A stretch of 64,000 bases of DNA, taken from positions 1,123 through 65,122 of the forward strand of contig CAVSWN010000012.1 of NCBI GenBank assembly GCA_963731545.1, written 5' to 3'. The translations under genes were made by a program, and so were the position numbers. The notes under the pieces are model-generated. The model was not told where the DNA came from. It did no database searches and saw only the letters and a program-made list of their open reading frames with translations. This DNA comes from an uncultured Acidobacteriota bacterium. Its GTDB lineage: Bacteria; Acidobacteriota; Vicinamibacteria; Vicinamibacterales; CAVVIG01. Positions 41,430 through 57,987 of this stretch are shown piece by piece. Positions within the stretch are counted from its first letter, which is position 1. Each line of letters opens with the position of its first letter.

Positions 41430-44059
41430 TCAATCCGCGCGCAGCACCTTGAGCACGTCCGTGCGGGCCGCGCGCCACGCCGGCAAGCCGCACGCGGCAG
41501 TCGCGATCGCGACAATCACCAGCGCCGCTCCCGCGTAGGTCGGCGGATCGAGCGGCGCAATACCGTAGAGCATTCCTCGCACGAGCCGGCTCATCGCGAG
41601 CGCCATCACGAGCCCCACACTCACGCCGGCCACCGCAATCTTGACGCCGTCGGTGAGAATCGCGCGGACGACGTCGCGCGGACGAGCGCCGAGCGCGATG
41701 CGGATGCCGATCTCCTTCAGCCGCTCGTTCGTCGCGTAGGTCATCACCCCGTAGGCGCCGATCGTCGCGAGCATGAGCGACGCGATCGCGAAGAAGCCCA
41801 CCAGCTGGAGATTGAACGATCGCGCGCTGACCGTCGATTGCAGCACCTGATCCAGCGTGACGACCGACGTCACGGCAATCGACCCGTTCACGCCAGTGAT
41901 CGTGCGCTTGATCGACGGGAGCATCTGCGACGCGTCGCGGTTCGTGTGGGCCACGAACGTGATGCTGCCGGTCGGCGACTGGGCGTGCGGGATATAGAGC
42001 GAAGGAGCCGCCGGCTTCGCGAGCTCGCGCCGCACGTCGGCGACGACGCCGACGATTTCGCGCTCGACGGGTGCGGCCATGAAGCGGACGACGATCCGCT
42101 GGCCGATGGCCGATCGATCGGGCCAGTATTGCCGCGCCAGGCGTTCGTTGACGATCGCGACCGGCTTGGCGCGCGTATCGTCGGACCACTCGAAGCGCCG
42201 GCCGCCCTGAACGGCGATGCCCAACGACTCGAGGTACCCGGGCGTGATGATGGACGCCTGCGCGCTGACCGGCTGCGCCGTCGTCGCCGGCTGACCCGGA
42301 ATGGAGAAGGTGGCGATCTCCGCGCCGATGCGTTCGGCCAGCGGCAGCGACGACCCGGCGCCGGCCAGTTCCACGCCGGGGACTTCGGCCAGCCGATCGA
42401 CCACCTGCTTGATGAAGGATCCACGGCGCGCCGCGTCGGGATACTCCTGCCACGCGTGCAGCGTCGCGACGGCGACGTTCTCCACGCGAAAGCCCCGCTC
42501 CTCGGACAACAGCGTGACCAGGGATCGCACGAACAAGCCGGCGGTCACGAGCAGAATCATCGCGACGGCAAGCTCCGCGGCGACGAACGTGTGCTGAACC
42601 GATCGGCTGCCCGTGGTGGCGGTGCGAATCCTCGACGAGAGCCTGAGCGCCAGCCGCGTATCGCCCGCCCTCGACAAGGCGACGAGGCAGACGGCAATCG
42701 CCGTGGCCACAGCGAGACCGCAACCGACGGCGACGGTCTGCCAGCCGACGATCATCTGCTCGGCGCGTGGCAGCGTGGACGGCACGACCGTTCTCAACAG
42801 ACTGGTGCTCCACCGTGCGAGGAGAAAGGCGGTGACGGCGCCGAACGAGGCGAGCAGCAGACTCTCGGTCAATATCTGCCGGCGGACGCGTCCGGCGCCG
42901 GCGCCGAGCGCGACCCGGACGCCGAATTCGTGGTCGCGCCGCAGCAGCCGCACCAGCAGCAGGTTGCTGACGTTGACGCAGGCGACGAGGAGCAGCAGCC
43001 CGACGCCGACGAGAAAGACCATCAGGATCGGACGAGCGTTGCCGACCATCGATTCCTTGAGCGGGACCGCGCTGATGCCCATGGCCGCGTTCTCGCGCGG
43101 ATACTCCTTCCGCAGCTGCTGCGCCACGGTATCGAGCCGTGCCTGCGCCGCCGCCACGGTCACACCCGGCTTCACGCGAGCGACGACGCGGTAGTAGCTC
43201 GACGCACGGCGGGCGAGCTCCTCGGCGCTGAAGACCTTGGGACCCCAGACATCGCGGCCGCGCGGAAAATTGAACGCCGGCGGCATGACGCCGACGATCG
43301 TGTACGGCTCCTTGTCCATCACGACCGACCGGCCGATCACGCCGGGATCGCCGCCGAACTCGCGCGTCCAGATGCCGTAGCCGAGGACCAGCACGTTGTC
43401 GCGGTCCGCCGTGAACTCCTCGCGCGTGAAGGTGCGGCCCAGAAACGGGCGGGTGCCGAGAATCTCGAAGAACCCTTCGGTCACCAGCCAGGTCGGCACG
43501 CGCTCGGGACCATCGGGTTTTGAGTACGTCCGGCTCCACGGTTCAACGGCCGCGATCGCGAGCGCATCGGACGTGCGCTCGCGCCAGTCCACGAAGTTGG
43601 CCGGCGCGACATCGTCGCGCTCCGTGGGCCGCGCGATGTTGTGCTGGCGCAGCTCGACGAGCTCGTCCTGATTCGGATACGGCAACGGCCGCAGCAGCAC
43701 GGCCTCGATCGCGCTGAAGATCGTCATGTTGGCGCCGATGCCGAGGCCGAGCGTGAGGATGACGACCAGGGCGAAGCCGGGCTCGCGCACGAGCGACCGG
43801 AGCGCGTAGCGGAGATCCGCGCCGAGGTCGTCCCACAACTGGACGCCGATGCTGCGGCGCACGTCGTCCTTGTGCACTTCCACGCCGCCGAAGTCGCGCA
43901 GCGCCGTGCGTCGCGCTTCGTCGTGCGGCACGCCTCGAGCCACGCGCGCTTCGATCTCGCGATCGAGATGGTCGCGCAGCTCGGCGTTCAGGTCGTTTCC
44001 AGTCGCGAACGGCGCGCGATGCCGCGCCAGCGGCTACGAAACTCGGCGAACAGACGCAT
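41430..44059 (-). CDS. ABC transporter permease, acidobacterial duplicated orphan permease (ADOP; MacB_PCD/FtsX x2)
   Basis: DLRYALRSL..PGF, LGLGIGAN, LLLVACVNVSNL, EFGVRVALGA, EIGIRIALGA and C-terminal LRAD. Confidence 0.92.
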
Positions 44060-44077
44060 ATGTGTGACCCCGATCGG

Positions 44078-44407
44078 CTAGCCGGATTGCATGACGCGCT
44101 GCACGGCGCCCATGAAGCGTTCCCAGTCCGCCTGCTCACGGGCGAGCTCCGCGCGCCCGGCGCGGGTGAGCCGGTAGTACTTCGACCGGCGATTGTTGTC
44201 GGACGCGGCCCACTCGGAGTCGATCAGCCCGCGCCGCTCCAGCCGATGCAGCGCCGGATACAGCGAGCCCTGGTTCACCTGCAGGACGTCCTTCGAGATC
44301 TGCATGATGCGCTGCGCGATGCCCCAGCCGTGGAGCGGCTGCAGCGCCACCGCCTTCAGAATCAGCATGTCGAGGGTCCCCTGCCGCAGATCGGTGCCGT
44401 CGTGCAC
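44078..44407 (-). CDS. padR: PadR family transcriptional regulator, acidobacterial type
   Basis: QGTLDMLIL, LHGWGI, GSLYPALHRLE and YYRLTRAG. Confidence 0.93.
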   Translation of the reverse strand: MHDGTDLRQGTLDMLILKAVALQPLHGWGIAQRIMQISKDVLQVNQGSLYPALHRLERRGLIDSEWAASDNNRRSKYYRLTRAGRAELAREQADWERFMGAVQRVMQSG

Positions 44408-44412
44408 GGTTG

Positions 44413-44469
44413 CTCCTGTCGAAGATTGAGGGATGAGGCTACTGCGGATTCTTGTCGATGGTCAAGAGG
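44413..44469 (-). promoter_or_regulatory. Putative sigma70 promoter and duplicated operator-like boxes for padR
   Basis: Minus strand TTGACC (44460-44465), 18 bp spacer, TAGCCT (44436-44441). Two similar boxes CTCCTGTCGAAGATTGAGGG and TTCTTGTCGATGGTCAAGAGG. Confidence 0.5.
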
Positions 44470-45264
44470 TGACGGAGGGAACGGTAACGGAGGCGACGGA
44501 GACAACGGTATTACACAGAGAAACGAAGGAACGGAGAATTGAACAGAGAAGACAAAATAATGTCTTCTCCGTTCAAACCTCTGTTCCTTCGTTCCTCTGT
44601 GTAATTACCGTTCCCTCCGTCCGCTCCGTTACCTCGGCGCGGGGGTTGACCAACCTCCTCACACCATCCATCAGCCTCGGCACATTGAAGTTGATCAACA
44701 GTCCAACCGGACAGCGCGTCAAATGCAGGTACGTCAGGAGCTGGGCCTCGAATACCGGCAGCACCGTGGCTACGGATTTCACTTCGACGACAACCGAGTC
44801 TTCGACGATGAGATCGAGCCGATATGAGGCGTCCAGGGCGATGCCCTTGTAGACGACCGGGATCGGATGCTGCGTCACGAATTTCAACTTGCGCGCACCC
44901 AGCTCAAAGCGCAGACACGGCAGATATGTCGATTCAAGGAGCCCGGGTCCGAGCACGCGATGAACTTCGATCGCGGCGCCGAGAATTCCATGAGTGAGAT
45001 CGTTGAAGGCCGAAAGGTCGATGTGCATGCGCCGGCGTCGTGCAAGGAGCAAGCCGCGAGAAAATCCCAGCTTTCTTTAGATCCGGGTCGCAAAAGAGCG
45101 CAGTTTCTGCGATTGCTAGCGAGGCCTTGATGCGAGTTTTTCAATCGAAGGAACCTAGACAGAAAAAGAGAATGAGGTCTTCTCCGTTCAAACCTCCGTT
45201 CCTTCGTTCCTCCTTGTGATACCGTTCCCTCCGTCCCCTCCGTTTCCGTTTCCTCCGTCTCCTC
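44466..45264. mobile_element. Candidate GxxExxY element bounded by 88-bp imperfect terminal inverted repeats
   Basis: 44466-44553 aligns without gaps to the reverse complement of 45177-45264 (13 mismatches by hand count). A third copy lies at 44562-44635. Confidence 0.65.
44573..45028 (-). CDS. GxxExxY protein (PD-(D/E)XK nuclease-like)
   Basis: LGPGLLESTY signature, RLDLIVE, VEVKSV, AQLLTYL and GLLINF. Confidence 0.92.
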   Translation of the reverse strand: MHIDLSAFNDLTHGILGAAIEVHRVLGPGLLESTYLPCLRFELGARKLKFVTQHPIPVVYKGIALDASYRLDLIVEDSVVVEVKSVATVLPVFEAQLLTYLHLTRCPVGLLINFNVPRLMDGVRRLVNPRAEVTERTEGTVITQRNEGTEV

Positions 45265-45294
45265 CGTGCGCGCTATAATACCTACACTGCAGGC

Positions 45295-45618
45295 ATGATT
45301 CGCCTCGGCGCCTTCGAACACCTCCTCCTCCTCGCCCTCATCCGCCTGGGCGACGACACCTATGGCGTGCCGATCCGCGACGAGATCGAGGCGCGGACGG
45401 GCCGGCTCGTCTCGCCCGGCGCGATCTACACCGCGCTCGATCGCCTCGAGCGCCGCGGCCTCGTCCGCTCCCAGCTCGGGGACCCGACACCCGCGCGCGG
45501 CGGCAAGCGCAAGCGCTGCTATCGGTTGACGACGAAAGGCAGCGCGGCGCTGCGGGATGCGCAGAACGCGATGACCCACATGACGCACGGCATCAAGCCG
45601 AAGCTGCAGACGCAATGA
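45295..45618 (+). CDS. padR: PadR family transcriptional regulator
   Basis: LGAFEHLLLLAL, YGVPI, GAIYTALDRLE..G and RGGKRKR; TATAAT at 45274-45279 upstream. Confidence 0.9.
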   Translation: MIRLGAFEHLLLLALIRLGDDTYGVPIRDEIEARTGRLVSPGAIYTALDRLERRGLVRSQLGDPTPARGGKRKRCYRLTTKGSAALRDAQNAMTHMTHGIKPKLQTQ

Positions 45619-48312
45619 CGCGCCTGCGCGCGGAAGCGTCAGCGAAGGCGCGCCACCGCGCCTCCCAGGGCGTCTACTCCGCCTGCTGCTCCCGCCGGAG
45701 GTTCGCGAAGTCATCGCCGGCGATCTCGAGGAAACCTGGGCGCAGCATCCCTCGCGCAGCCGGTATTGGCGGATGACCATCGCCTCGCTGGCCGCCTGGT
45801 GGCGGCATCGCCTGCGCGGCGAGCACGACCGCTCGAATACGGATCGCCGCGCGCCCAATGGAGACGGCCTCATGCAGCAGCTTCTGCAAGACCTCGCGTA
45901 CGGACTCCGGCTGATGCGCCGCGCACCCGCGTTCACGGCGGCTATTGTGCTGACGCTGGCCGTCGGCATCGGCGCCAACGCGGCCACGTTCAGCATCGTG
46001 GACATCCTCGCGCTGACACCGCTCACCTACAAAGACCCCGAGCGTGTCGCCTTCGTCTTCGGGTGGAATCTTGAACGTCAGCAGCGGCGCTTCAACCTGC
46101 CGCTCGCCGATGCGCTCGATATCGGCAGGGACACCCGATCGCTGGCCATGGTCGCTGGCTATCAGTACTGGAGCGCGAATCTGACCGGCGCCGCCGATCC
46201 CGAGCGTGTGCAGGCGTACCGCGTGACGGCCAACACATTCGCGCTGCTCGGCGTCGAGGCGGAACATGGCCGCACGATTGCCGCGGCCGACGGCCTCCCC
46301 GCCGCCCCGGACGTTGTCGTCCTCAGCCATGGCCTGTGGCAGCGGCGGTTCGGCGGATCGCCGGCGAGCGTGGGCGCAGACGGTCACGCTCGACGGGCGC
46401 GCGCACACCATCGTCGGCGTGATGCCGCGCCGGTTCGAGTTCCCCGTGTTCAACTTCAAAGGCGAAGCCTGGACGCCGTTCAAGATCGACGAAGCGGCGG
46501 GCATCACGCGCGAGTCGTCGCCGTCGGTCGTGGCGATCGCTCGGCTGCGGCCCGACGCCAGCTACCGCACGGCGCAAGCGGAGCTCGACACCGTGATGCG
46601 GCGGCTGGAAACGGACTACCCGCGCAGCAATCGCGGTCTGGGCGCGCGGATCCTCGAGATGCGCCGGCTCGGCGACGAGTACGGCACGGGATCGATCTCG
46701 ATCGTCCTGCTGTTCGCGGTCGGCTTCGTGCTGCTGCTCGCGTGCGCCAACGTCGCCAACCTGCTCCTGTCGCGGGCGGTCTCGCGCGAACGGGAAATCG
46801 GCGTTCGCGCCGCCATCGGCGCCGGCCGCGGCCGCCTGGTCAGACAACTGCTCACCGAGAGCGCGCTCCTCTCGGCCGCGGGGTCGATTGCGGGGCTCGC
46901 GGTCGCGGCGATCGTGCTGCAGTGGATCCGCGCCTCGCTGCCGGAGCTGCTGCTGGTCTCGCAACCGAACGTGCTCGACCTGGGCGTCGACCGCCGCACG
47001 CTCGTCTACACCGCCGGATTGGCCACGATGAGCGCACTGCTGTTCGGCGGATTACCGGCGCTGCGCACCGCCAGGATCGATCTGCTCACGTCATTGAAGG
47101 CCGGCAGTCACGGCACCGCGTCGCCGCGTCACCAACGCGCTCGCTCGGCGTTGATGGTCGCAGAGGTGGCGATATCGGTCGTGCTCCTCGTCGGCGCCGG
47201 GCTGCTCGTTCGCGGCGCCGGACGCCTACGGCACGTGGACACAGGTTTCAATCCGGACTCGGTTCTGACGATGACGATCGCGTTGCCCGAGTATCGATAC
47301 GGCGACGCCGATGCGCGGCGTACGTTCTTCACGTCGGCGCTGAGCAACGTGCAGCATATTCCAGGCGTGCGCGCCGCCGGGTTCGTCAACGTCCTGCCGC
47401 TCAGTACCTACGACGGGGGCACGCGCTACACGCTGTCCGGCCGCGGCCGTCGAGGCAGGGCGTGAACCCACGGCCGCCTTCCGCATCGTCACGGCGGACT
47501 ACTTCAACGCTCTCGAAATCCCCGTGCGCGCCGGTCGCGGCTTCGATTCGCGAGACGCGGCAACGGCGCAGCCGGTCGCGATCGTGAACCAGACATTCGT
47601 GCGCCGCGTGTTCGGCGGCGCCGATCCCATCGGCCAGCAGTTCCGTCTTGGTCGTGTGACATCCACCAGTCCGATGCGGACGATCGTCGGCGTCGTCGGC
47701 GACGTGCTCCACTCCGAGCTGACCGGCCGGCCCGAGCCGGAGATCTACGTGCCCTTCGCGCAGGCTCCGGCGTCGACGATGTTCCTCGCCGCGCGGACGG
47801 CCGGCGATCCCGACAGGTTTGTAGACGCTGTCCGCGGGTCGCTGGCGAAGGTCGACCCAGGACAGCCGGTCTATCACGTGAAGTCGATGAAATCGCTGGT
47901 GGACGCGGCGATGCTGCCCAACACAACGGCGACGGCGATCATGACGCTGTTCGCGATGCTCGCTCTCGTGCTCGCCAGCGTGGGGATCTACGGCGTCACG
48001 TCGTACGCCGTCACCCAACAGACGCGGGAATTCGGCGTCCGGCTCGCGCTCGGCGCGACGCCGCTCGACGTGCTGGGGATCGTGATCCGCCGCGGGCTGA
48101 CGCTGATCGCGATCGGTATGGTCATCGGGAGCGTGTTGGCCATCGGCGCCGGGCAGGCGCTCGCAGCGTTGCTGCCGAGCGTGCGCGCAGCGGACGCGCT
48201 GCCGTACCTGGCCGTGGCCGCGATCCTCTTCGCCGTCGGCGCGGCGGCATGCTACGTGCCCGCCCGCCGCGCCATGCGGCTTGATCCGGTGGAGATCCTG
48301 AGGGCGGACTAG
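45615..48312 (+). CDS. ADOP-type ABC transporter permease; frameshifted
   Basis: IAGDLEE N-terminus, [41 protein letters not shown] and LRAD end; ATGA overlap with padR. Confidence 0.9.
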
Positions 48313-55359: not shown

Positions 55360-56601
55360 ATGAAACGTCATATTGCCGCGCTTGCCGGAATCATCATCAT
55401 CGCGGGGCTGACTGGAACTGTCGGTGGGCAGAACGCCGGCGCCGATTGGCCGCAGTGGCGCGGCCCGAATCGCGACGGCACGCTGACCGCATTCACCGAG
55501 CCGCGATCCTGGCCCGAACAGCTCACGCAGAAATGGAAGATCGAGGTCGGCACCGGCTACGCCACCCCGATCATCGTCGGCAACCGCGTCTACGCGTTCT
55601 CGCGCCAGCAGGACAACGAAGTGCTGCGGGCGATCGACGTCGACACCGGAAAGATCGTCTGGGAGACGAGCTACCCGGCGTCGTTCAAGATGAACCCGGC
55701 GACGTCTCGGCACGGCCCCGGACCGAAATCGACGCCGACCTACGCGAACGGCCGGCTGTTCACGCTTGGCATCAGCGGCATCGTCACCGCCTTCGACGCC
55801 GCAACCGGCAAGCAGCTGTGGCAGAAACCTGCCGGGCCGGTCGAGCCGCTGTTTCACACGTCGCAGTCGGCGCTGGTCGATCGCGGTGTGGTGATCCTGC
55901 ACGTCGGCGGCCACAAAGACGGCGCGCTGACGGCGTTCGATCCGGCCACCGGCGCCGTGAAGTGGAGCTGGAACGGCGACGGTCCGGCCTACGGGTCGCC
56001 GATCATCGCGGAGATCGACGGCACGCGGCAGGTGATCGTGTTCTCACAGGACAACCTCGTCGGCGTGGATGCTTCGAACGGCCAGCTGCTGTGGCGCACG
56101 CCGTTCACGGCGCGCTCCATCACGAACTCGATCACGCCGCTCGTCTACGGCGGCCGCACGATCATCGTCTCGGGCCAGGGCAAGCCGCTGACGGCGTACA
56201 CGATTGCGAAGAAGGACGGCCAGTGGACCGCCGAGATGGCCTGGGAAAACCCGCAGCTGTCGATGTCGTTCAGCAACGCCGTGCTGGTCGGCGACGCCGT
56301 GTTCTCGATGTCGGCGATGAACAGCGGCCAGTTCTTCTGGGCCGACGCGAAGACCGGCAAGACGCTGTGGACGTCGCGCCCGCGTCAGGCCTCGAACGCG
56401 GCGATCGTCCGGAGCGGCAACCTGCTCTTCGTGCTGAAAGACGATGCCGAGCTGATGGTGGCGCGCAGCGCGCCGGGCGGATTCGAACCGCTGAAGACCT
56501 ACACCGTCGCCGACAGCGCCACCTGGCCCGCGCCGGCGTTTTCGGGCAATCGGATTCTGGTGAAGGACATCTCGACGATCGCGCTGTGGACGGTGAACTG
56601 A
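55360..56601 (+). CDS. PQQ-binding-like beta-propeller protein, secreted
   Basis: Signal peptide, DWPQWRGPNRDG and repeated A.D..TGK..W blades. Confidence 0.9.
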   Translation: MKRHIAALAGIIIIAGLTGTVGGQNAGADWPQWRGPNRDGTLTAFTEPRSWPEQLTQKWKIEVGTGYATPIIVGNRVYAFSRQQDNEVLRAIDVDTGKIVWETSYPASFKMNPATSRHGPGPKSTPTYANGRLFTLGISGIVTAFDAATGKQLWQKPAGPVEPLFHTSQSALVDRGVVILHVGGHKDGALTAFDPATGAVKWSWNGDGPAYGSPIIAEIDGTRQVIVFSQDNLVGVDASNGQLLWRTPFTARSITNSITPLVYGGRTIIVSGQGKPLTAYTIAKKDGQWTAEMAWENPQLSMSFSNAVLVGDAVFSMSAMNSGQFFWADAKTGKTLWTSRPRQASNAAIVRSGNLLFVLKDDAELMVARSAPGGFEPLKTYTVADSATWPAPAFSGNRILVKDISTIALWTVN

Positions 56602-56606
56602 GATCA

Positions 56607-56907
56607 GGGCGACGGAGGTTACGGAGGAACGGTATTCACACGGAGGAACGGAGCAACGGAGACGCAACGGAGAAGACAGCGTGACGCTACTGGTTCGACG
56701 GGCGTCGCGAAGCGACGCGCGCGGGGAAATGAAACGGCGGAAACGAACACCGCTAATCGCGCAGGTGCTCGTTTTCGCCGTTTCATTTCTCCCCGCTACT
56801 CGGCCGGCCATGCCGGCCGACCCGTCGAACCGGAGTCTTCTCCGTTCGTCCTCCGTTCCTCCGTTTCTCTGTGTGAATACCGTGCACTCCGTCATCTCCG
56901 TTATCTC
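56607..56907. mobile_element. Non-coding MITE/REPIN-like element with ACGGAG-unit inverted arms and a multi-hairpin core
   Basis: Arms 56607-56677 and 56835-56907 match the GxxExxY-flanking repeats; nested internal stems; GATCA on both sides (56602-56606, 56908-56912). Confidence 0.7.
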
Positions 56908-56909
56908 GA

Positions 56910-57479
56910 TCACGACGAGGCGAGGCGCTTGAACGCCTCGACGCGCCTCAGCAGCTCGTCGCACGTGGCGGCGAGCTGCGTGCGCTGTTCGACGTCGGCC
57001 GAGGCCGCGGCGGCCGGCGAAAAGCTCCGTAGCACATCGCGAACCTGCTCCGCCGCGATCTTGACCTCCTCCATCGCGATCGCGAACGCGGCATCGGCGG
57101 ACGCGCGCTGCTCCGATGCGAGCGCATCGTTCCTCACCTTCTGCAGCATCTTCTGCATGCGATCGCTGCCGGGATCGAGCTGAAAAATCAGATAGTGCTT
57201 GGGCGCCATGGTGACCGCCGTCACCTTGTAGTGGAACTCGTGCCCCACTTCGTCCACTTCCGCGCACGGCCCCCACTCGCGCAGCATCGGCTCGCCCTTG
57301 TTCCAGAAGAGGCCGGCCTCCTCGAGAATGTGGCCGAGGAACGGAAACGTGCCGTCGCCGGCGAGCCGCGCGAACCAACGGGGAAGCGGCGCCAGCGACC
57401 CGAAGGACCCATCGGCGCGCCGCTCGAACACGGCGATCCCGAGCCCGTTCATCAACGCTTTCAGCAGATCCTCGCTCAT
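56910..57479 (-). CDS. Hypothetical protein, last gene of the small-GTPase operon
   Basis: Intact 189 aa ORF; small alpha/beta N-terminal domain (FPFL..F/IL.EA..FW) followed by a helical tail. Confidence 0.7.
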   Translation of the reverse strand: MSEDLLKALMNGLGIAVFERRADGSFGSLAPLPRWFARLAGDGTFPFLGHILEEAGLFWNKGEPMLREWGPCAEVDEVGHEFHYKVTAVTMAPKHYLIFQLDPGSDRMQKMLQKVRNDALASEQRASADAAFAIAMEEVKIAAEQVRDVLRSFSPAAAASADVEQRTQLAATCDELLRRVEAFKRLASS

Positions 57480-57495
57480 GGGATTTGTCCGTGTG

Positions 57496-57987
57496 CTACT
57501 TGGCCACCATCGCCCGCGCCAGCGCCGAGAACGTCTCGTCCACGTGGATGCCGCTCTTGGCGCTCGTTTTCACGACGGGACATTTCAACTGATCGAGCGC
57601 GCTCTGATCGAGCTCCCAGGTGCTGTCGAGATCGGTCTTGTTGATCGCGAGCATCGCCGGAACCGGCTGACCGATCGCCCACTGCGCCTTCGCGTGCAGC
57701 ATGAGCGCGGTGTCGAGCGTCGTGCGGCGTGTCGCGTCCACGACCAGCAGGTAGCCGGAGGTGCCGCGCAGGTACGACATGTGGAGTTTCTGAAACTCGT
57801 CCTCGCCGTGAAGATCCCACACGATCAGATCGACCCTCTCATCGCCGAGGTCGACGCTCTTCTTCTCGATCTTCACGCCGACCGTCGTCAGGTACTTGTC
57901 GGAGAAGATGCTGTGGACGAAGCGGGACACGAGGCTGGTCTTGCCGACGCCGAACCCGCCGAGCATGCAAATTTTCTTCTGAATCAC
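57496..57987 (-). CDS. Ras-superfamily small GTPase, Rab-like
   Basis: G1 GGFGVGKTS, G2 YLTTVG, G3 WDLHG, G4 NKTD and G5 TSAK. Confidence 0.93.
   Translation of the reverse strand: MIQKKICMLGGFGVGKTSLVSRFVHSIFSDKYLTTVGVKIEKKSVDLGDERVDLIVWDLHGEDEFQKLHMSYLRGTSGYLLVVDATRRTTLDTALMLHAKAQWAIGQPVPAMLAINKTDLDSTWELDQSALDQLKCPVVKTSAKSGIHVDETFSALARAMVAK

What the first reader, a model, noticed from the sequence alone, without database searches (positions are those of the whole stretch)
56602..56912. Gene-less sibling element: same ACGGAG inverted arms enclosing a multi-branched hairpin core, flanked by GATCA
Seen: arms 56607-56677 and 56835-56907 share ACGGTATTCACAC(G/A)GAG and AACGGAGAAGAC with the GxxExxY repeats. 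Inside, GGTTCGACGGG (56692-56702) pairs with CCCGTCGAACC (56821-56831) and closes a junction of three hairpins: GCGTCGC-GAA-GCGACGC (56702-56718), a ~31 bp stem 56721-56751/56764-56796, and TCGGCCGGC-CAT-GCCGGCCGA (56800-56820). A mini-hairpin AGCG-TGA-CGCT lies at 56678-56688. Nearly all 301 nt can pair. GATCA occurs on both sides, a possible target-site duplication. Established: d(GCGAAGC) is an exceptionally stable DNA mini-hairpin. Inference: a non-autonomous element mobilised as folded ssDNA, or a structured ncRNA cargo, served by the GxxExxY protein.
Basis: partly seen in the sequence, partly recalled or inferred. Interest (0 to 1): 0.85.

Follow-up and report, generated by a model that had tools for sequence, protein, structure and literature searches.

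The report
Gene-less foldback repeat tied to GxxExxY genes
This 300-base stretch between two genes is one copy of a dispersed, strongly self-pairing DNA repeat of soil Acidobacteria that shares its ends with small nuclease-gene cassettes, which makes it a handle on how such selfish cassettes spread.

Summary
Window 56602-56912 fills the gap between two convergent genes. 86% of its bases pair, as RNA or DNA, on either strand (z -17 to -21). It is one of at least 13 copies in this 55%-complete genome. The core was found in 53 of 118 genomes of the family, in other families of the order (Vicinamibacterales by record titles), and not in the other orders sampled. The four-way-junction core is real: 42 of 53 pairs show compensatory changes. 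Pairing is 95% Watson-Crick with G-T equal to A-C, orientation relative to genes is random, and orthologous copies lose whole hairpins. This argues for a DNA-level selfish repeat and against an RNA gene.

These genes sit between arms of the same tandem-octamer type. The core lies within 300 nt of the gene in 6 of 30 loci. All 53 core-bearing genomes carry the gene.

The GATCA target-site duplication is not supported: 54 copies show no more flanking repeats than controls. No near-identical copies were found. Mobilisation by the nuclease is inferred, not shown.

No description of the family was found in Rfam or in the papers searched.

The parts
56607..56677 (+). Left arm. G-rich tandem units (A)ACGGAG with 8-11 nt spacing plus a TATTCACAC segment. 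Pairs with the right arm.
   Evidence: (I2: 49 nt, 86% complementary). The same arm type is seen in 49 aligned copies, 78% Watson-Crick.
56678..56688 (+). Mini-hairpin AGCG-TGA-CGCT between the arm and P1. Present only in the close subfamily.
   Evidence: In the alignment AGCGTGA is seen in WIN and L012, L041-L044.
56692..56702 (+). P1 5' strand, GGTTCGACGGG (closing helix of the four-way junction).
   Evidence: Helix 1 has 10 pairs, 7 with changes on both sides, and 96.7% of cells paired.
56702..56718 (+). P2 hairpin GCGTCGC-GAA-GCGACGC with a C-GNA-G triloop (the mini-hairpin DNA motif).
   Evidence: helix 2, 98.6% paired. Loop is GNA in 10 of 11 own-genome copies and in 6 of 9 copies from other families. 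Motif stability from PMC13037366 (passages).
56719..56798 (+). P3, the long hairpin of about 31 bp (56721-56751 / 56764-56796) with a 12-nt loop. It is the variable part of the family.
   Evidence: helices 3 and 4: 30 of 30 pairs with changes on both sides. Identity to the ortholog is 67-69% against 100% for P1-5' and P2.
56800..56820 (+). P4 hairpin TCGGCCGGC-CAT-GCCGGCCGA.
   Evidence: helix 5, 99.4% paired. Loops are TNC in 30 of 61 and GNA in 6 of 61 detectable hairpins. This copy has CAT.
56821..56831 (+). P1 3' strand, CCCGTCGAACC.
56835..56907 (+). Right arm. C-rich CTCCGT(T) units, complementary to the left arm.
55360..56601 (+). Upstream neighbour, a PQQ_2/BamB-like beta-propeller gene. 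Its stop codon ends 1 nt before the element.
   Evidence: PF13360 E 1.2e-34. GC by codon position is 0.58/0.51/0.89.
56910..57479 (-). Downstream neighbour, a convergent 189-aa gene with no family match. Its stop codon overlaps the right GATCA.
   Evidence: no family. GC by codon position is 0.68/0.45/0.88.
44470..44640 (.). Arm-only hairpin of the sibling locus: arm A 44470-44555, an 8-nt loop, and arm A' 44560-44640.
   Evidence: C12:45637-45722, inner 18 nt.
44573..45052 (-). GxxExxY (PD-(D/E)XK) gene. Its 3' end runs into arm A'. The catalytic E32, D72, E82-x-K84 are kept.
   Evidence: invariant columns; model pLDDT 92.1.
45175..45270 (.). Second, direct copy of arm A' beyond the gene's 5' side.

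Best explanation
The element is a gene-less member of a family of foldback-type selfish DNA repeats of Vicinamibacterales. Two arms of tandem G-rich octamer-like units (ACGGAG and variants) enclose a module of four nested palindromes: P1 closing P2, P3 and P4.

Arms of the same type enclose GxxExxY (PD-(D/E)XK nuclease) genes, with or without the same core. So the gene-less copies are best read as non-autonomous relatives of those cassettes.

The constraint acts on DNA. Complementarity is kept in a strand-symmetric, Watson-Crick way, so either strand (as ssDNA or an extruded cruciform) can form the four-way junction. P1 and P2 also keep their sequence, and P2 carries the C-GNA-G mini-hairpin that is very stable in DNA.

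Inferred mechanism: the conserved P1/P2 junction and the arm repeats are cis sites. They are recognised when the DNA is folded or single-stranded and processed by the GxxExxY nuclease supplied in trans. Copies would then spread or be homogenised by host recombination and repair (copy-and-paste or gene conversion), which leaves no target-site duplication.

Shown: the structure, copy number, taxonomic range, physical and genome-level association with the gene, and loss or gain between congeners. Inferred: folding in vivo, cleavage by GxxExxY, and the mode of spread.
For: Copy number and range:
- At least 13 loci in the own genome.
- The core is in 53 of 118 family genomes and 25 of 43 genera.
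- In a class-wide sample it is in 9 of 151 genomes (the window's own genome counted), spread over 5 families of the same order, and in none of the families of other orders sampled, e.g. 0/27, 0/39, 0/17.
- 74 loci match an exact 25-nt pattern, all but 2 short contigs titled Acidobacteriota or Vicinamibacterales. There are 0 in viral contigs.

Structure:
- 42 of 53 pairs have changes on both sides.
- 94% of cells are paired against 77.8% in shuffles (0 of 500 reach it) and 27-41% when partners are slid.

DNA-level signature:
- Core: 94.8% Watson-Crick, G-T 63 against A-C 56 in 75 copies.
- Arms: G-T 162 against A-C 171 in 49 copies.
- Flanking-gene arrangements are ++ 13, -- 15, +- 13, -+ 7 (rough gene calls).
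- Both strands fold almost equally as DNA.
- The P2 loop is GNA in 10 of 11 own copies. The corresponding RNA hairpin is far less stable than the DNA one (PMC13037366, passages).

Dispensable per locus:
- Orthologous copies in G040 lost P4 or P3.
- The own C30 copy lost half of P3.
- One site is filled in G040 and empty here, with flanks 96% and 93% identical.
- One site holds different subfamily members in opposite orientation, one of them with a decayed GxxExxY gene.

Gene link:
- All 4 of 4 own GxxExxY loci lie between such arms.
- By eye, most of 27 loci from other genomes show arms of the same octamer type. By alignment score only 9 of 27 exceed the 99th percentile of random controls.
- A core lies within 300 nt of the gene in 6 of 30 loci. 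My estimate from the (capped) copy numbers is about 0.4 expected.
- Core-bearing genomes with the gene: 53 of 53. Core-free genomes with the gene: 39 of 65. Fisher p = 1.1e-8, not corrected for kinship.
- The catalytic E, D, ExK residues are invariant.
- The nuclease fold is nearest to Cas4 and lambda-exonuclease types (E 8.5e-4, TM 0.44).
Against: - No target-site duplication.
- No near-identical copies. The best within-genome identities over at least 200 nt are 81% (G000), 85% (G040) and 94% (G057), so recent transposition is not shown.
- The filled/empty site cannot be polarised. It may be a deletion, and the indel is not bounded by the arms.
- 39 core-free genomes also have GxxExxY genes.
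- The same tandem-octamer arm architecture, with other octamers, flanks both PF05635 genes of this genome. The arms are therefore not specific to the nuclease, and the nuclease may be cargo rather than engine.
- The fold match to known nucleases is weak (TM 0.44). It gives no hint of junction-resolving activity, and no relative of solved structure was found by sequence.
- Kin genomes are not independent, so the 53 of 53 overstates the support.
- P2's GNA loop is conserved on one strand far more than any loop on the other, so some strand preference exists despite the symmetric pair statistics.
- Contigs from RNA libraries carry arm hairpins and related cores, so transcription is not excluded.
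Confidence: 0.5

Rival explanations
1. Landing pad. The arm-plus-core palindromes are an older host repeat of some other role or none. GxxExxY genes are homing-type selfish genes that cut and invade them. On this reading the gene-less copies are empty targets, not derivatives.
For: Gene-bearing loci often look like an insertion into an element with a duplicated part. The window locus reads A-loop-A'-gene-A'. L150 reads A-core-(decayed A')-gene-core-A', and L165 has two cores in the same orientation. At one orthologous site G040 has the gene-less form and G000 the gene-bearing form. The gene's GC3 is 0.70 against 0.88-0.89 for host genes.
Against: GxxExxY genes have arms even in the 39 genomes without any core, so the arms travel with the gene. 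Simple A-gene-A' loci without duplication exist (C8, C9). The two occupants of the shared site belong to different subfamilies in opposite orientation, which is not a clean insertion.
Confidence: 0.2
2. Domesticated DNA or transcript punctuation. The repeat persists because the host uses it, for example as a cruciform or protein-binding site in chromosome organisation, or as a long double-stranded RNA stem cut by RNase III whichever strand is transcribed. This would resemble REP/BIME elements or rRNA intervening sequences.
For: The copies are strictly intergenic and often start within a few bases of a stop codon. P1 and P2 are identical between orthologs whose coding flanks differ by 4-9%. Copies are old and diverged rather than recent. 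RNA-library contigs contain arm hairpins, and one contig runs from the PQQ-like gene into the left arm. Intervening sequences bordered by inverted repeats are cut by RNase III (PMC4990558, passages).
Against: Whole hairpins are lost in orthologs without loss of the locus. Copies are absent at orthologous sites and absent from 65 of 118 family genomes. No U-tract follows the stem. The RNA-library evidence comes from contigs only and may be DNA carry-over.
Confidence: 0.12
3. A structured non-coding RNA gene or a cis-regulatory RNA.
For: Covariation is very strong. The RNA fold of the + strand is 18 kcal/mol better than that of the - strand for this copy. Related sequences occur in RNA libraries.
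Against: No Rfam family matches. There are 0 hits at gathering score, and at E up to 1 only long-hairpin miRNA models far below threshold. G-U is only 1.8% of core pairs and equals A-C. Orientation to neighbouring genes is random. The reverse strand scores almost as well with the model. Triloops of the GNA type are weak in RNA. Hairpins are deleted in orthologs.
Confidence: 0.08
4. A REP/REPIN-like element mobilised by the genome's RAYT (Y1 transposase). The RAYT gene's own flanking repeat, GGGGACGGAGGT, shares ACGGAGG with the arms.
For: A Y1_Tnp gene at G000:C30:176262-176609 (36.7 bits) is flanked by 5 and 11 inverted copies of GGGGACGGAGGT. The first unit of the window's left arm reads GGGCGACGGAGGTT.
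Against: At least 7 of 53 core-bearing genomes have no Y1_Tnp match: G001, G022, G023, G028, G059, G069 and G097. G059 is 92% complete with 24 model matches, and G069 is 98% complete with 13. The GGGG prefix is absent from other copies. The RAYT repeat arrays have a spacing of about 20 nt and no core.
Confidence: 0.04

Closest known systems
23S rRNA intervening sequences (IVS) carrying an S23p / four-helix-bundle ORF
   Same: Both are selfish elements bordered by terminal inverted repeats that form a long stem and enclose a small ORF or nothing (PMC4990558, abstract and passages). In this genome both PF05635 genes sit between tandem-octamer inverted arms like those of the GxxExxY genes.
   Different: This element lies between protein-coding genes, not in an rRNA helix. 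It carries a four-way-junction core instead of an ORF. RNase III excision was not tested. How IVS elements move is itself unknown.
[quoted passage not shown]
   Same: It is small, non-coding, multi-copy and intergenic, with inverted ends shared with a gene-bearing relative.
   Different: No target-site duplication. No near-identical copies. The partner gene is a PD-(D/E)XK nuclease, not a known transposase. The interior is a conserved, covarying set of nested palindromes. The ends are arrays of short tandem units.
REP / BIME / REPIN elements with RAYT transposases
   Same: Both are dispersed extragenic palindromes whose hairpin form matters, with old and diverged copies. A RAYT gene with its own repeat arrays exists in this genome.
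   Different: REPs are 20-40 nt single hairpins (PMC3733652, abstract seen in the listing). Here a roughly 300-nt nested structure is found, and at least 7 of 53 core-bearing genomes have no Y1_Tnp match.
Foldback (FB) transposons of eukaryotes (recalled, no call)
   Same: Long inverted ends are built of short tandem repeats, and the middle is variable, with or without coding sequence.
   Different: FB elements are eukaryotic and unrelated in sequence and enzymes. The resemblance is architectural only and rests on memory.
ssDNA hairpin sites with C-GNA-G mini-hairpins (phage G4-type priming sites, ssiA, phage N4 hairpin promoters)
   Same: P2 is a GC stem capped by GAA or GCA, closed by C-G. 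Such caps mark protein-recognised ssDNA hairpins (PMC13037366, sections 4.1-4.2 passages).
   Different: No replication or priming context is present. The element is chromosomal and multi-copy. No function was tested.

Membership tests
MITE | Terminal inverted repeats and small non-coding size | tested here: met
   Arms of about 70 nt; element of 311 nt, lying wholly in the gap between the two neighbouring genes.
MITE | Target-site duplication of fixed length | tested here: not met
   54 copies show a flank-repeat distribution equal to the control.
MITE | Autonomous partner with the same ends that encodes a transposase | tested here: inconclusive
   The same arms, and in some loci the same core, enclose GxxExxY nuclease genes. 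This family has no shown transposase activity. PMC3424549 lists the function of PF13366 as unknown.
MITE | Evidence of recent mobility (near-identical copies, insertion polymorphism) | tested here: inconclusive
   Best within-genome identity is 81-94%. One filled/empty site between congeners could not be polarised.
REP/REPIN-RAYT | Co-occurrence with a RAYT gene flanked by the same repeat | tested here: not met
   The RAYT gene is flanked by a different 12-mer array. At least 7 of 53 core-bearing genomes lack Y1_Tnp.
23S rRNA IVS | Inserted in a 23S rRNA helix | tested here: not met
   It lies between a PQQ_2-like gene and a 189-aa gene.
23S rRNA IVS | Terminal inverted repeats forming a long stem around a small ORF or nothing | tested here: met
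.
23S rRNA IVS | Excision from the transcript by RNase III | not testable with these tools
   Only contigs of RNA libraries were available.
Known structured RNA family (Rfam) | Match to a curated covariance model | tested here: not met
   0 hits at gathering score in the window. At E up to 1 only sub-threshold hairpin models match.
Structured RNA in general | Strand-specific pairing (G-U well above A-C) and constant orientation to transcription | tested here: not met
   G-T 63 against A-C 56 in the core and 162 against 171 in the arms. Orientation is ++ 13 and -- 15.
GxxExxY / PDDEXK_3 (the sibling's protein) | Profile match and catalytic E...D...ExK | tested here: met
   PF13366 at 132.6 bits and TIGR04256 at 138.5 bits. 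E32, D72 and E82 are invariant, and K84 is conserved in at least 90% of 79 sequences.

The most novel reading that the evidence does not exclude
Tandem-octamer foldback arms define a so far undescribed class of prokaryotic selfish cassettes that lack a transposase. The arms always have the G-rich arm at the 5' end on either strand. Their cargo is a GxxExxY nuclease gene, an S23p-type four-helix-bundle gene (as in rRNA intervening sequences), or, in Vicinamibacterales, a four-way-junction DNA module. That module would be the nuclease's structured substrate. The cassettes would spread by hairpin- or cruciform-dependent cleavage followed by host repair. This would explain both the very large GxxExxY family and the long-unexplained mobility of IVS elements.
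Probability: 0.25. Interest if true: 0.85.

Novelty: new variant of a known kind. Interest (0 to 1): 0.62.

Why it matters
GxxExxY proteins are a very large family. The search found 19,040 cluster representatives at E up to 0.001. A 2012 survey lists their function as unknown (PMC3424549), and five full-text searches found no functional study. How rRNA intervening sequences and their small ORFs move is also unsolved.

This locus family gives both problems a concrete handle:
- a conserved, strongly structured DNA module that travels inside the same arms as the nuclease gene;
- a clear genome-level dependence, with 53 of 53 core-bearing genomes carrying the gene;
- natural gene-bearing and gene-less forms at one orthologous site.

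A binding and cleavage test of one 150-aa protein on defined oligonucleotides becomes the obvious experiment. If the link is false, the element is still a new, well-defined palindromic repeat family. It is useful for annotating Vicinamibacterales genomes, where it can mimic ncRNA predictions and break assemblies.

Tried and rejected
- Target-site duplication: rejected.
- 'Fixed polarity' of the core relative to the arms: I first read ACRGAG always on the left as meaningful. It is trivial for any inverted repeat read on its own strand, so I dropped it. Only the 'G-rich arm first on both strands' observation remains non-trivial.
- Holliday-junction-resolvase idea for GxxExxY: the fold search gave Cas4, lambda-exonuclease and RecE-type matches only, and weak ones (best E 8.5e-4, TM 0.44). 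I found no support and make no claim.
- The first structure model, from 35 close homologs, was poor (pLDDT 58.7) and was not used. The second, from 79 sequences, reached 92.1.
- PDB sequence search: only XylR at E 0.1, which is noise.
- Empty site for the window's own locus: G039 (same genus) gave no match to window 55800-57700. G040 has the site filled. No empty allele was found, so a single GATCA could not be looked for.
- Sequencing runs: no run held half of the words; the best was 0.23. Four RNA-library runs, all contigs, were laid at 85% likeness. They show relatives' arm hairpins and cores and one contig bridging the upstream gene and the left arm. They give no starts, ends or strand. 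Stretches without cover mean nothing.
- 'Both strands carry one GNA hairpin': P4 loops are TNC in 30 of 61 copies found by pattern. In sets found without the pattern the figure is only 3 of 10 (own genome) and 2 of 10 (other families). It is a tendency, not a rule. The P2 count of 70 of 75 is biased by the search pattern, which demands GMA.
- Flanking-gene calls rest on a crude GC3/ORF rule. It miscalled the window's own right neighbour, so the orientation counts are approximate.
- Match counts per genome are capped (26 candidates scored, both strands) and are not copy numbers.
- Supplementary files of papers were not opened, and no claim depends on them.
Full report
WHAT IS THERE. Window 56602-56912 is the whole gap between two convergent genes. 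The upstream gene is a PQQ_2/BamB-like gene at 55360-56601 on the + strand (PF13360, E 1.2e-34). The downstream gene is a 189-aa gene without family match at 56910-57479 on the - strand. It shows a coding GC pattern of 0.68/0.45/0.88 by codon position.

The minimum-energy fold is the structure described. Two arms of about 70 nt pair with each other. Helix P1 closes a junction of three hairpins: P2 with a GAA triloop, a roughly 31-bp P3, and P4. In total 268 of 311 nt are paired. Folding is far beyond chance on both strands. As RNA the energies are -224.8 (z -20.7) and -206.5 (z -16.6). As DNA they are -131.3 (z -17.2) and -125.9 (z -16.9).

IT IS A REPEAT FAMILY. BLAST of the element against its own genome (a 4.41-Mb assembly, 55% complete) found further copies. 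I aligned 31 cores from this and related genomes (A2) and built a covariance model from them (R1). The model finds 13 good loci in the own genome. In the family, the core is in 53 of 118 genomes and 25 of 43 genera at E up to 1e-8. BLAST with the whole element had found 46 of 118.

A sample of the class gave matches in 9 of 151 genomes (the window's own genome counted). They lie in five families of the same order, and none lies in the families of other orders sampled. An exact 25-nt pattern across one genome per species returned 74 loci. Their record titles read Acidobacteriota or Vicinamibacterales, except for two 2-kb contigs binned elsewhere, which are probably mis-binned. There were none in viral contigs. 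Rfam has no match: 0 hits at gathering score in the window, and only sub-threshold hairpin models at E up to 1.

THE STRUCTURE IS SELECTED, BUT AS DNA. Of 53 consensus pairs, 42 show changes on both sides. Cells paired are 94.0% against 77.8% in shuffles (0 of 500 reach it) and 27-41% when partners are slid. Copies from other families keep the architecture with quite different sequences.

The pairing has none of the marks of an RNA:
- In 75 distinct cores, 94.8% of pairs are Watson-Crick, and G-T (63) equals A-C (56).
- In the arms of 49 copies pairing is looser (78%) and again symmetric, G-T 162 against A-C 171.
- The reverse strand scores nearly as well with the model.
- Orientation relative to neighbouring genes is random: ++ 13, -- 15, convergent 13, divergent 7. 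The gene calls behind these counts are rough.

P1 and P2 are conserved in sequence as well as in structure. The P2 loop is GNA in 10 of 11 own-genome copies and in 6 of 9 copies from other families. A GC stem capped by C-GNA-G is the 'mini-hairpin DNA'. It is extraordinarily stable as DNA and much weaker as RNA, and it is known at protein-recognised ssDNA hairpins (PMC13037366, passages). P4 loops tend to be the complement, TNC in 30 of 61 hairpins. This tendency is weak in the sets found without the pattern.

INDIVIDUAL COPIES ARE DISPENSABLE AND TURN OVER. I compared sites with the congeneric genome G040.
- The window's site is filled in both genomes. Flanks are 96% and 91% identical, yet the element is only 76% identical. 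By part, P1-5' is 11/11 identical, P2 17/17, the arms 79-84%, the P3 strands 67-69% with pairing kept, and the P3 loop 1/12. In G040, P4 and the P1 3' strand are largely deleted.
- At G000:C19:72985 the flanks are about 95% identical. The lower P3 stem is replaced on both strands by an unrelated but self-complementary sequence.
- At the C18 site G040 lost P3. At the C30 site the own copy lost half of P3 and part of an arm.
- One site (G000:C19:201415-201449) is empty here and filled in G040, with flanks 96% and 93% identical. The indel is not bounded by the arms and cannot be polarised.
- One site holds a gene-less element in G040. In G000 the same site holds a member of another subfamily in opposite orientation, with a decayed GxxExxY gene.

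Within genomes the most similar copies are 81% (G000), 85% (G040) and 94% (G057) identical over at least 200 nt. There is thus no sign of a recent burst.

NO TARGET-SITE DUPLICATION. In 54 copies, direct repeats across the outer arm ends (35 none, 12 of 4 nt, 6 of 5 nt, 1 of 6 nt) match the control made by pairing left and right flanks of different copies (32.9, 15.1, 4.6, 1.1). GATCA flanks only this copy and its ortholog. Here the left one follows the stop codon of the upstream gene and the right one overlaps the stop codon of the downstream gene. No empty allele of this site was found.

THE LINK TO GxxExxY GENES. The window's GxxExxY gene (44573-45052 on the - strand; PF13366 and TIGR04256) lies in the arrangement A-loop-A'-gene-A'. 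The other three GxxExxY loci of the genome also lie between inverted arms of tandem (N)CRRAG octamers. One of them reads arm - decayed gene - core - arm (G000:C37:317885-318550).

Across 27 loci from other genomes, most show arms of the same kind by eye. By alignment score, 9 of 27 exceed the 99th percentile of random controls. The core model hits within 300 nt of the gene in 6 of 30 loci, twice with a core on each side (L150, L165). From the capped copy numbers I estimate about 0.4 such loci by chance.

At genome level, 53 of 53 core-bearing genomes have the gene, against 39 of 65 core-free genomes. Fisher p is 1.1e-8 and is not corrected for kinship. By contrast, at least 7 of 53 core-bearing genomes have no Y1_Tnp match. 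The RAYT gene of this genome is flanked by a different repeat.

The protein keeps the PD-(D/E)XK residues E32, D72 and E82-x-K84. It is modelled with pLDDT 92.1. Its nearest solved folds are Cas4 (4ic1), lambda exonuclease and RecE, but only weakly (E 8.5e-4, TM 0.44).

A COMPLICATION. Both PF05635 genes of this genome (23S rRNA IVS protein, four-helix bundle) also sit between long inverted arms of tandem octamers, built from other octamers. The arm architecture is therefore shared by two unrelated small-gene families. The nuclease may be cargo rather than engine. The published analogue is the rRNA intervening sequence: a selfish element bordered by inverted repeats around an S23p ORF, excised from RNA by RNase III (PMC4990558, abstract and passages).

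MOST LIKELY READING. The element is a gene-less, foldback-type selfish DNA repeat that belongs to the GxxExxY cassette family. Its core is a DNA module that can form a four-way junction on either strand. The conserved P1/P2 junction and the arm repeats are the likely cis sites.

That the nuclease acts on them, and that spread or homogenisation goes through host repair without a target-site duplication, is inference. I give the whole statement 0.5. The rivals are a landing pad for homing-type GxxExxY genes (0.2), host-used DNA or transcript punctuation (0.12), a non-coding RNA (0.08), and a RAYT-dependent REP (0.04).

TRANSCRIPTION. No run held the locus itself; the best share of words was 0.23. 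Contigs of four RNA libraries, laid at 85% likeness, contain arm-only hairpins and related cores of relatives. One 245-nt contig runs from the upstream gene's 3' end into the left arm. This is compatible with read-through transcription. It shows neither strand nor ends, and it may be DNA carry-over.

NOVELTY. Full-text searches for GxxExxY, PDDEXK_3, TIGR04256/PF13366 and 23S rRNA-intervening sequence protein found no description of these arms, of the core, or of a function for the protein. Neither did searches for IVS with inverted repeats or for Acidobacteria with MITE or palindromic repeats. PMC3424549 lists the function of PF13366 as unknown (passage). Dispersed palindromic repeats are a known kind. 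Supplementary files were not consulted.

Noticed in passing
G000:C13:91583-92500 and G000:C18:69766-70330 (outside the window): Both PF05635 (23S rRNA IVS protein) genes of the genome lie between long inverted arms of tandem octamers. One arm is 119 nt of the GTGCGCAG/TGCTTAGT type and the other 37 nt of the GCAGGATT type. This is the same architecture as the GxxExxY cassettes, built from different octamers.
   Followed up: partly
L065:1490-2866 (G000:C30:176000-176950): A RAYT-like Y1_Tnp gene (36.7 bits) is flanked by 5 and 11 inverted copies of GGGGACGGAGGT at a spacing of about 20 nt. Arrays of the same 12-mer occur at five other places in the genome.
   Followed up: partly
window 56719-56798; L184 and L012 orthologs: The lower P3 stem is replaced on both strands, and stays paired, between orthologous copies whose flanks are 91-97% identical. 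P1 and P2 stay identical. No mechanism was tested.
   Followed up: partly
window 44470-45270: The GxxExxY locus reads arm A - 8-nt loop - arm A' - gene (minus strand) - about 120 nt of AT-richer spacer - second arm A'. The gene's GC3 is 0.70 against 0.88-0.89 for the genes beside the element.
   Followed up: partly
all arm pairs seen: On either strand the 5' arm is the G-rich one and the 3' arm the C-rich one. This holds for gene-less elements, GxxExxY cassettes and PF05635 cassettes. The opposite polarity was not seen.
   Followed up: no
L072, L101: The element occurs on contigs of about 2 kb binned into a Gemmatimonadales MAG and a Solirubrobacterales MAG. All other 72 loci are titled Acidobacteriota or Vicinamibacterales, so mis-binning is likely.
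   Followed up: no
proteins P0121-P0131 and others: Proteins of about 265-295 aa with two GxxExxY domains in tandem are among the best representatives. The family has 19,040 representatives at E up to 0.001.
   Followed up: no
window 41430-47587: Two PadR genes (44078-44407 on the - strand, 45295-45618 on the + strand) each sit next to a long permease-like ORF (41430-43943 on the - strand, 45773-47587 on the + strand). They diverge around the GxxExxY cassette. The permease ORFs were not scanned against families.
   Followed up: no
G000:C33:120926-121013, G000:C37:77871-77929, G000:C9:47006-47212: Arm-only hairpins of other octamer types (GCAAAG, ACGAAG) have short loops. One arm pair has a 161-nt interior that the core model does not hit.
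   Followed up: partly
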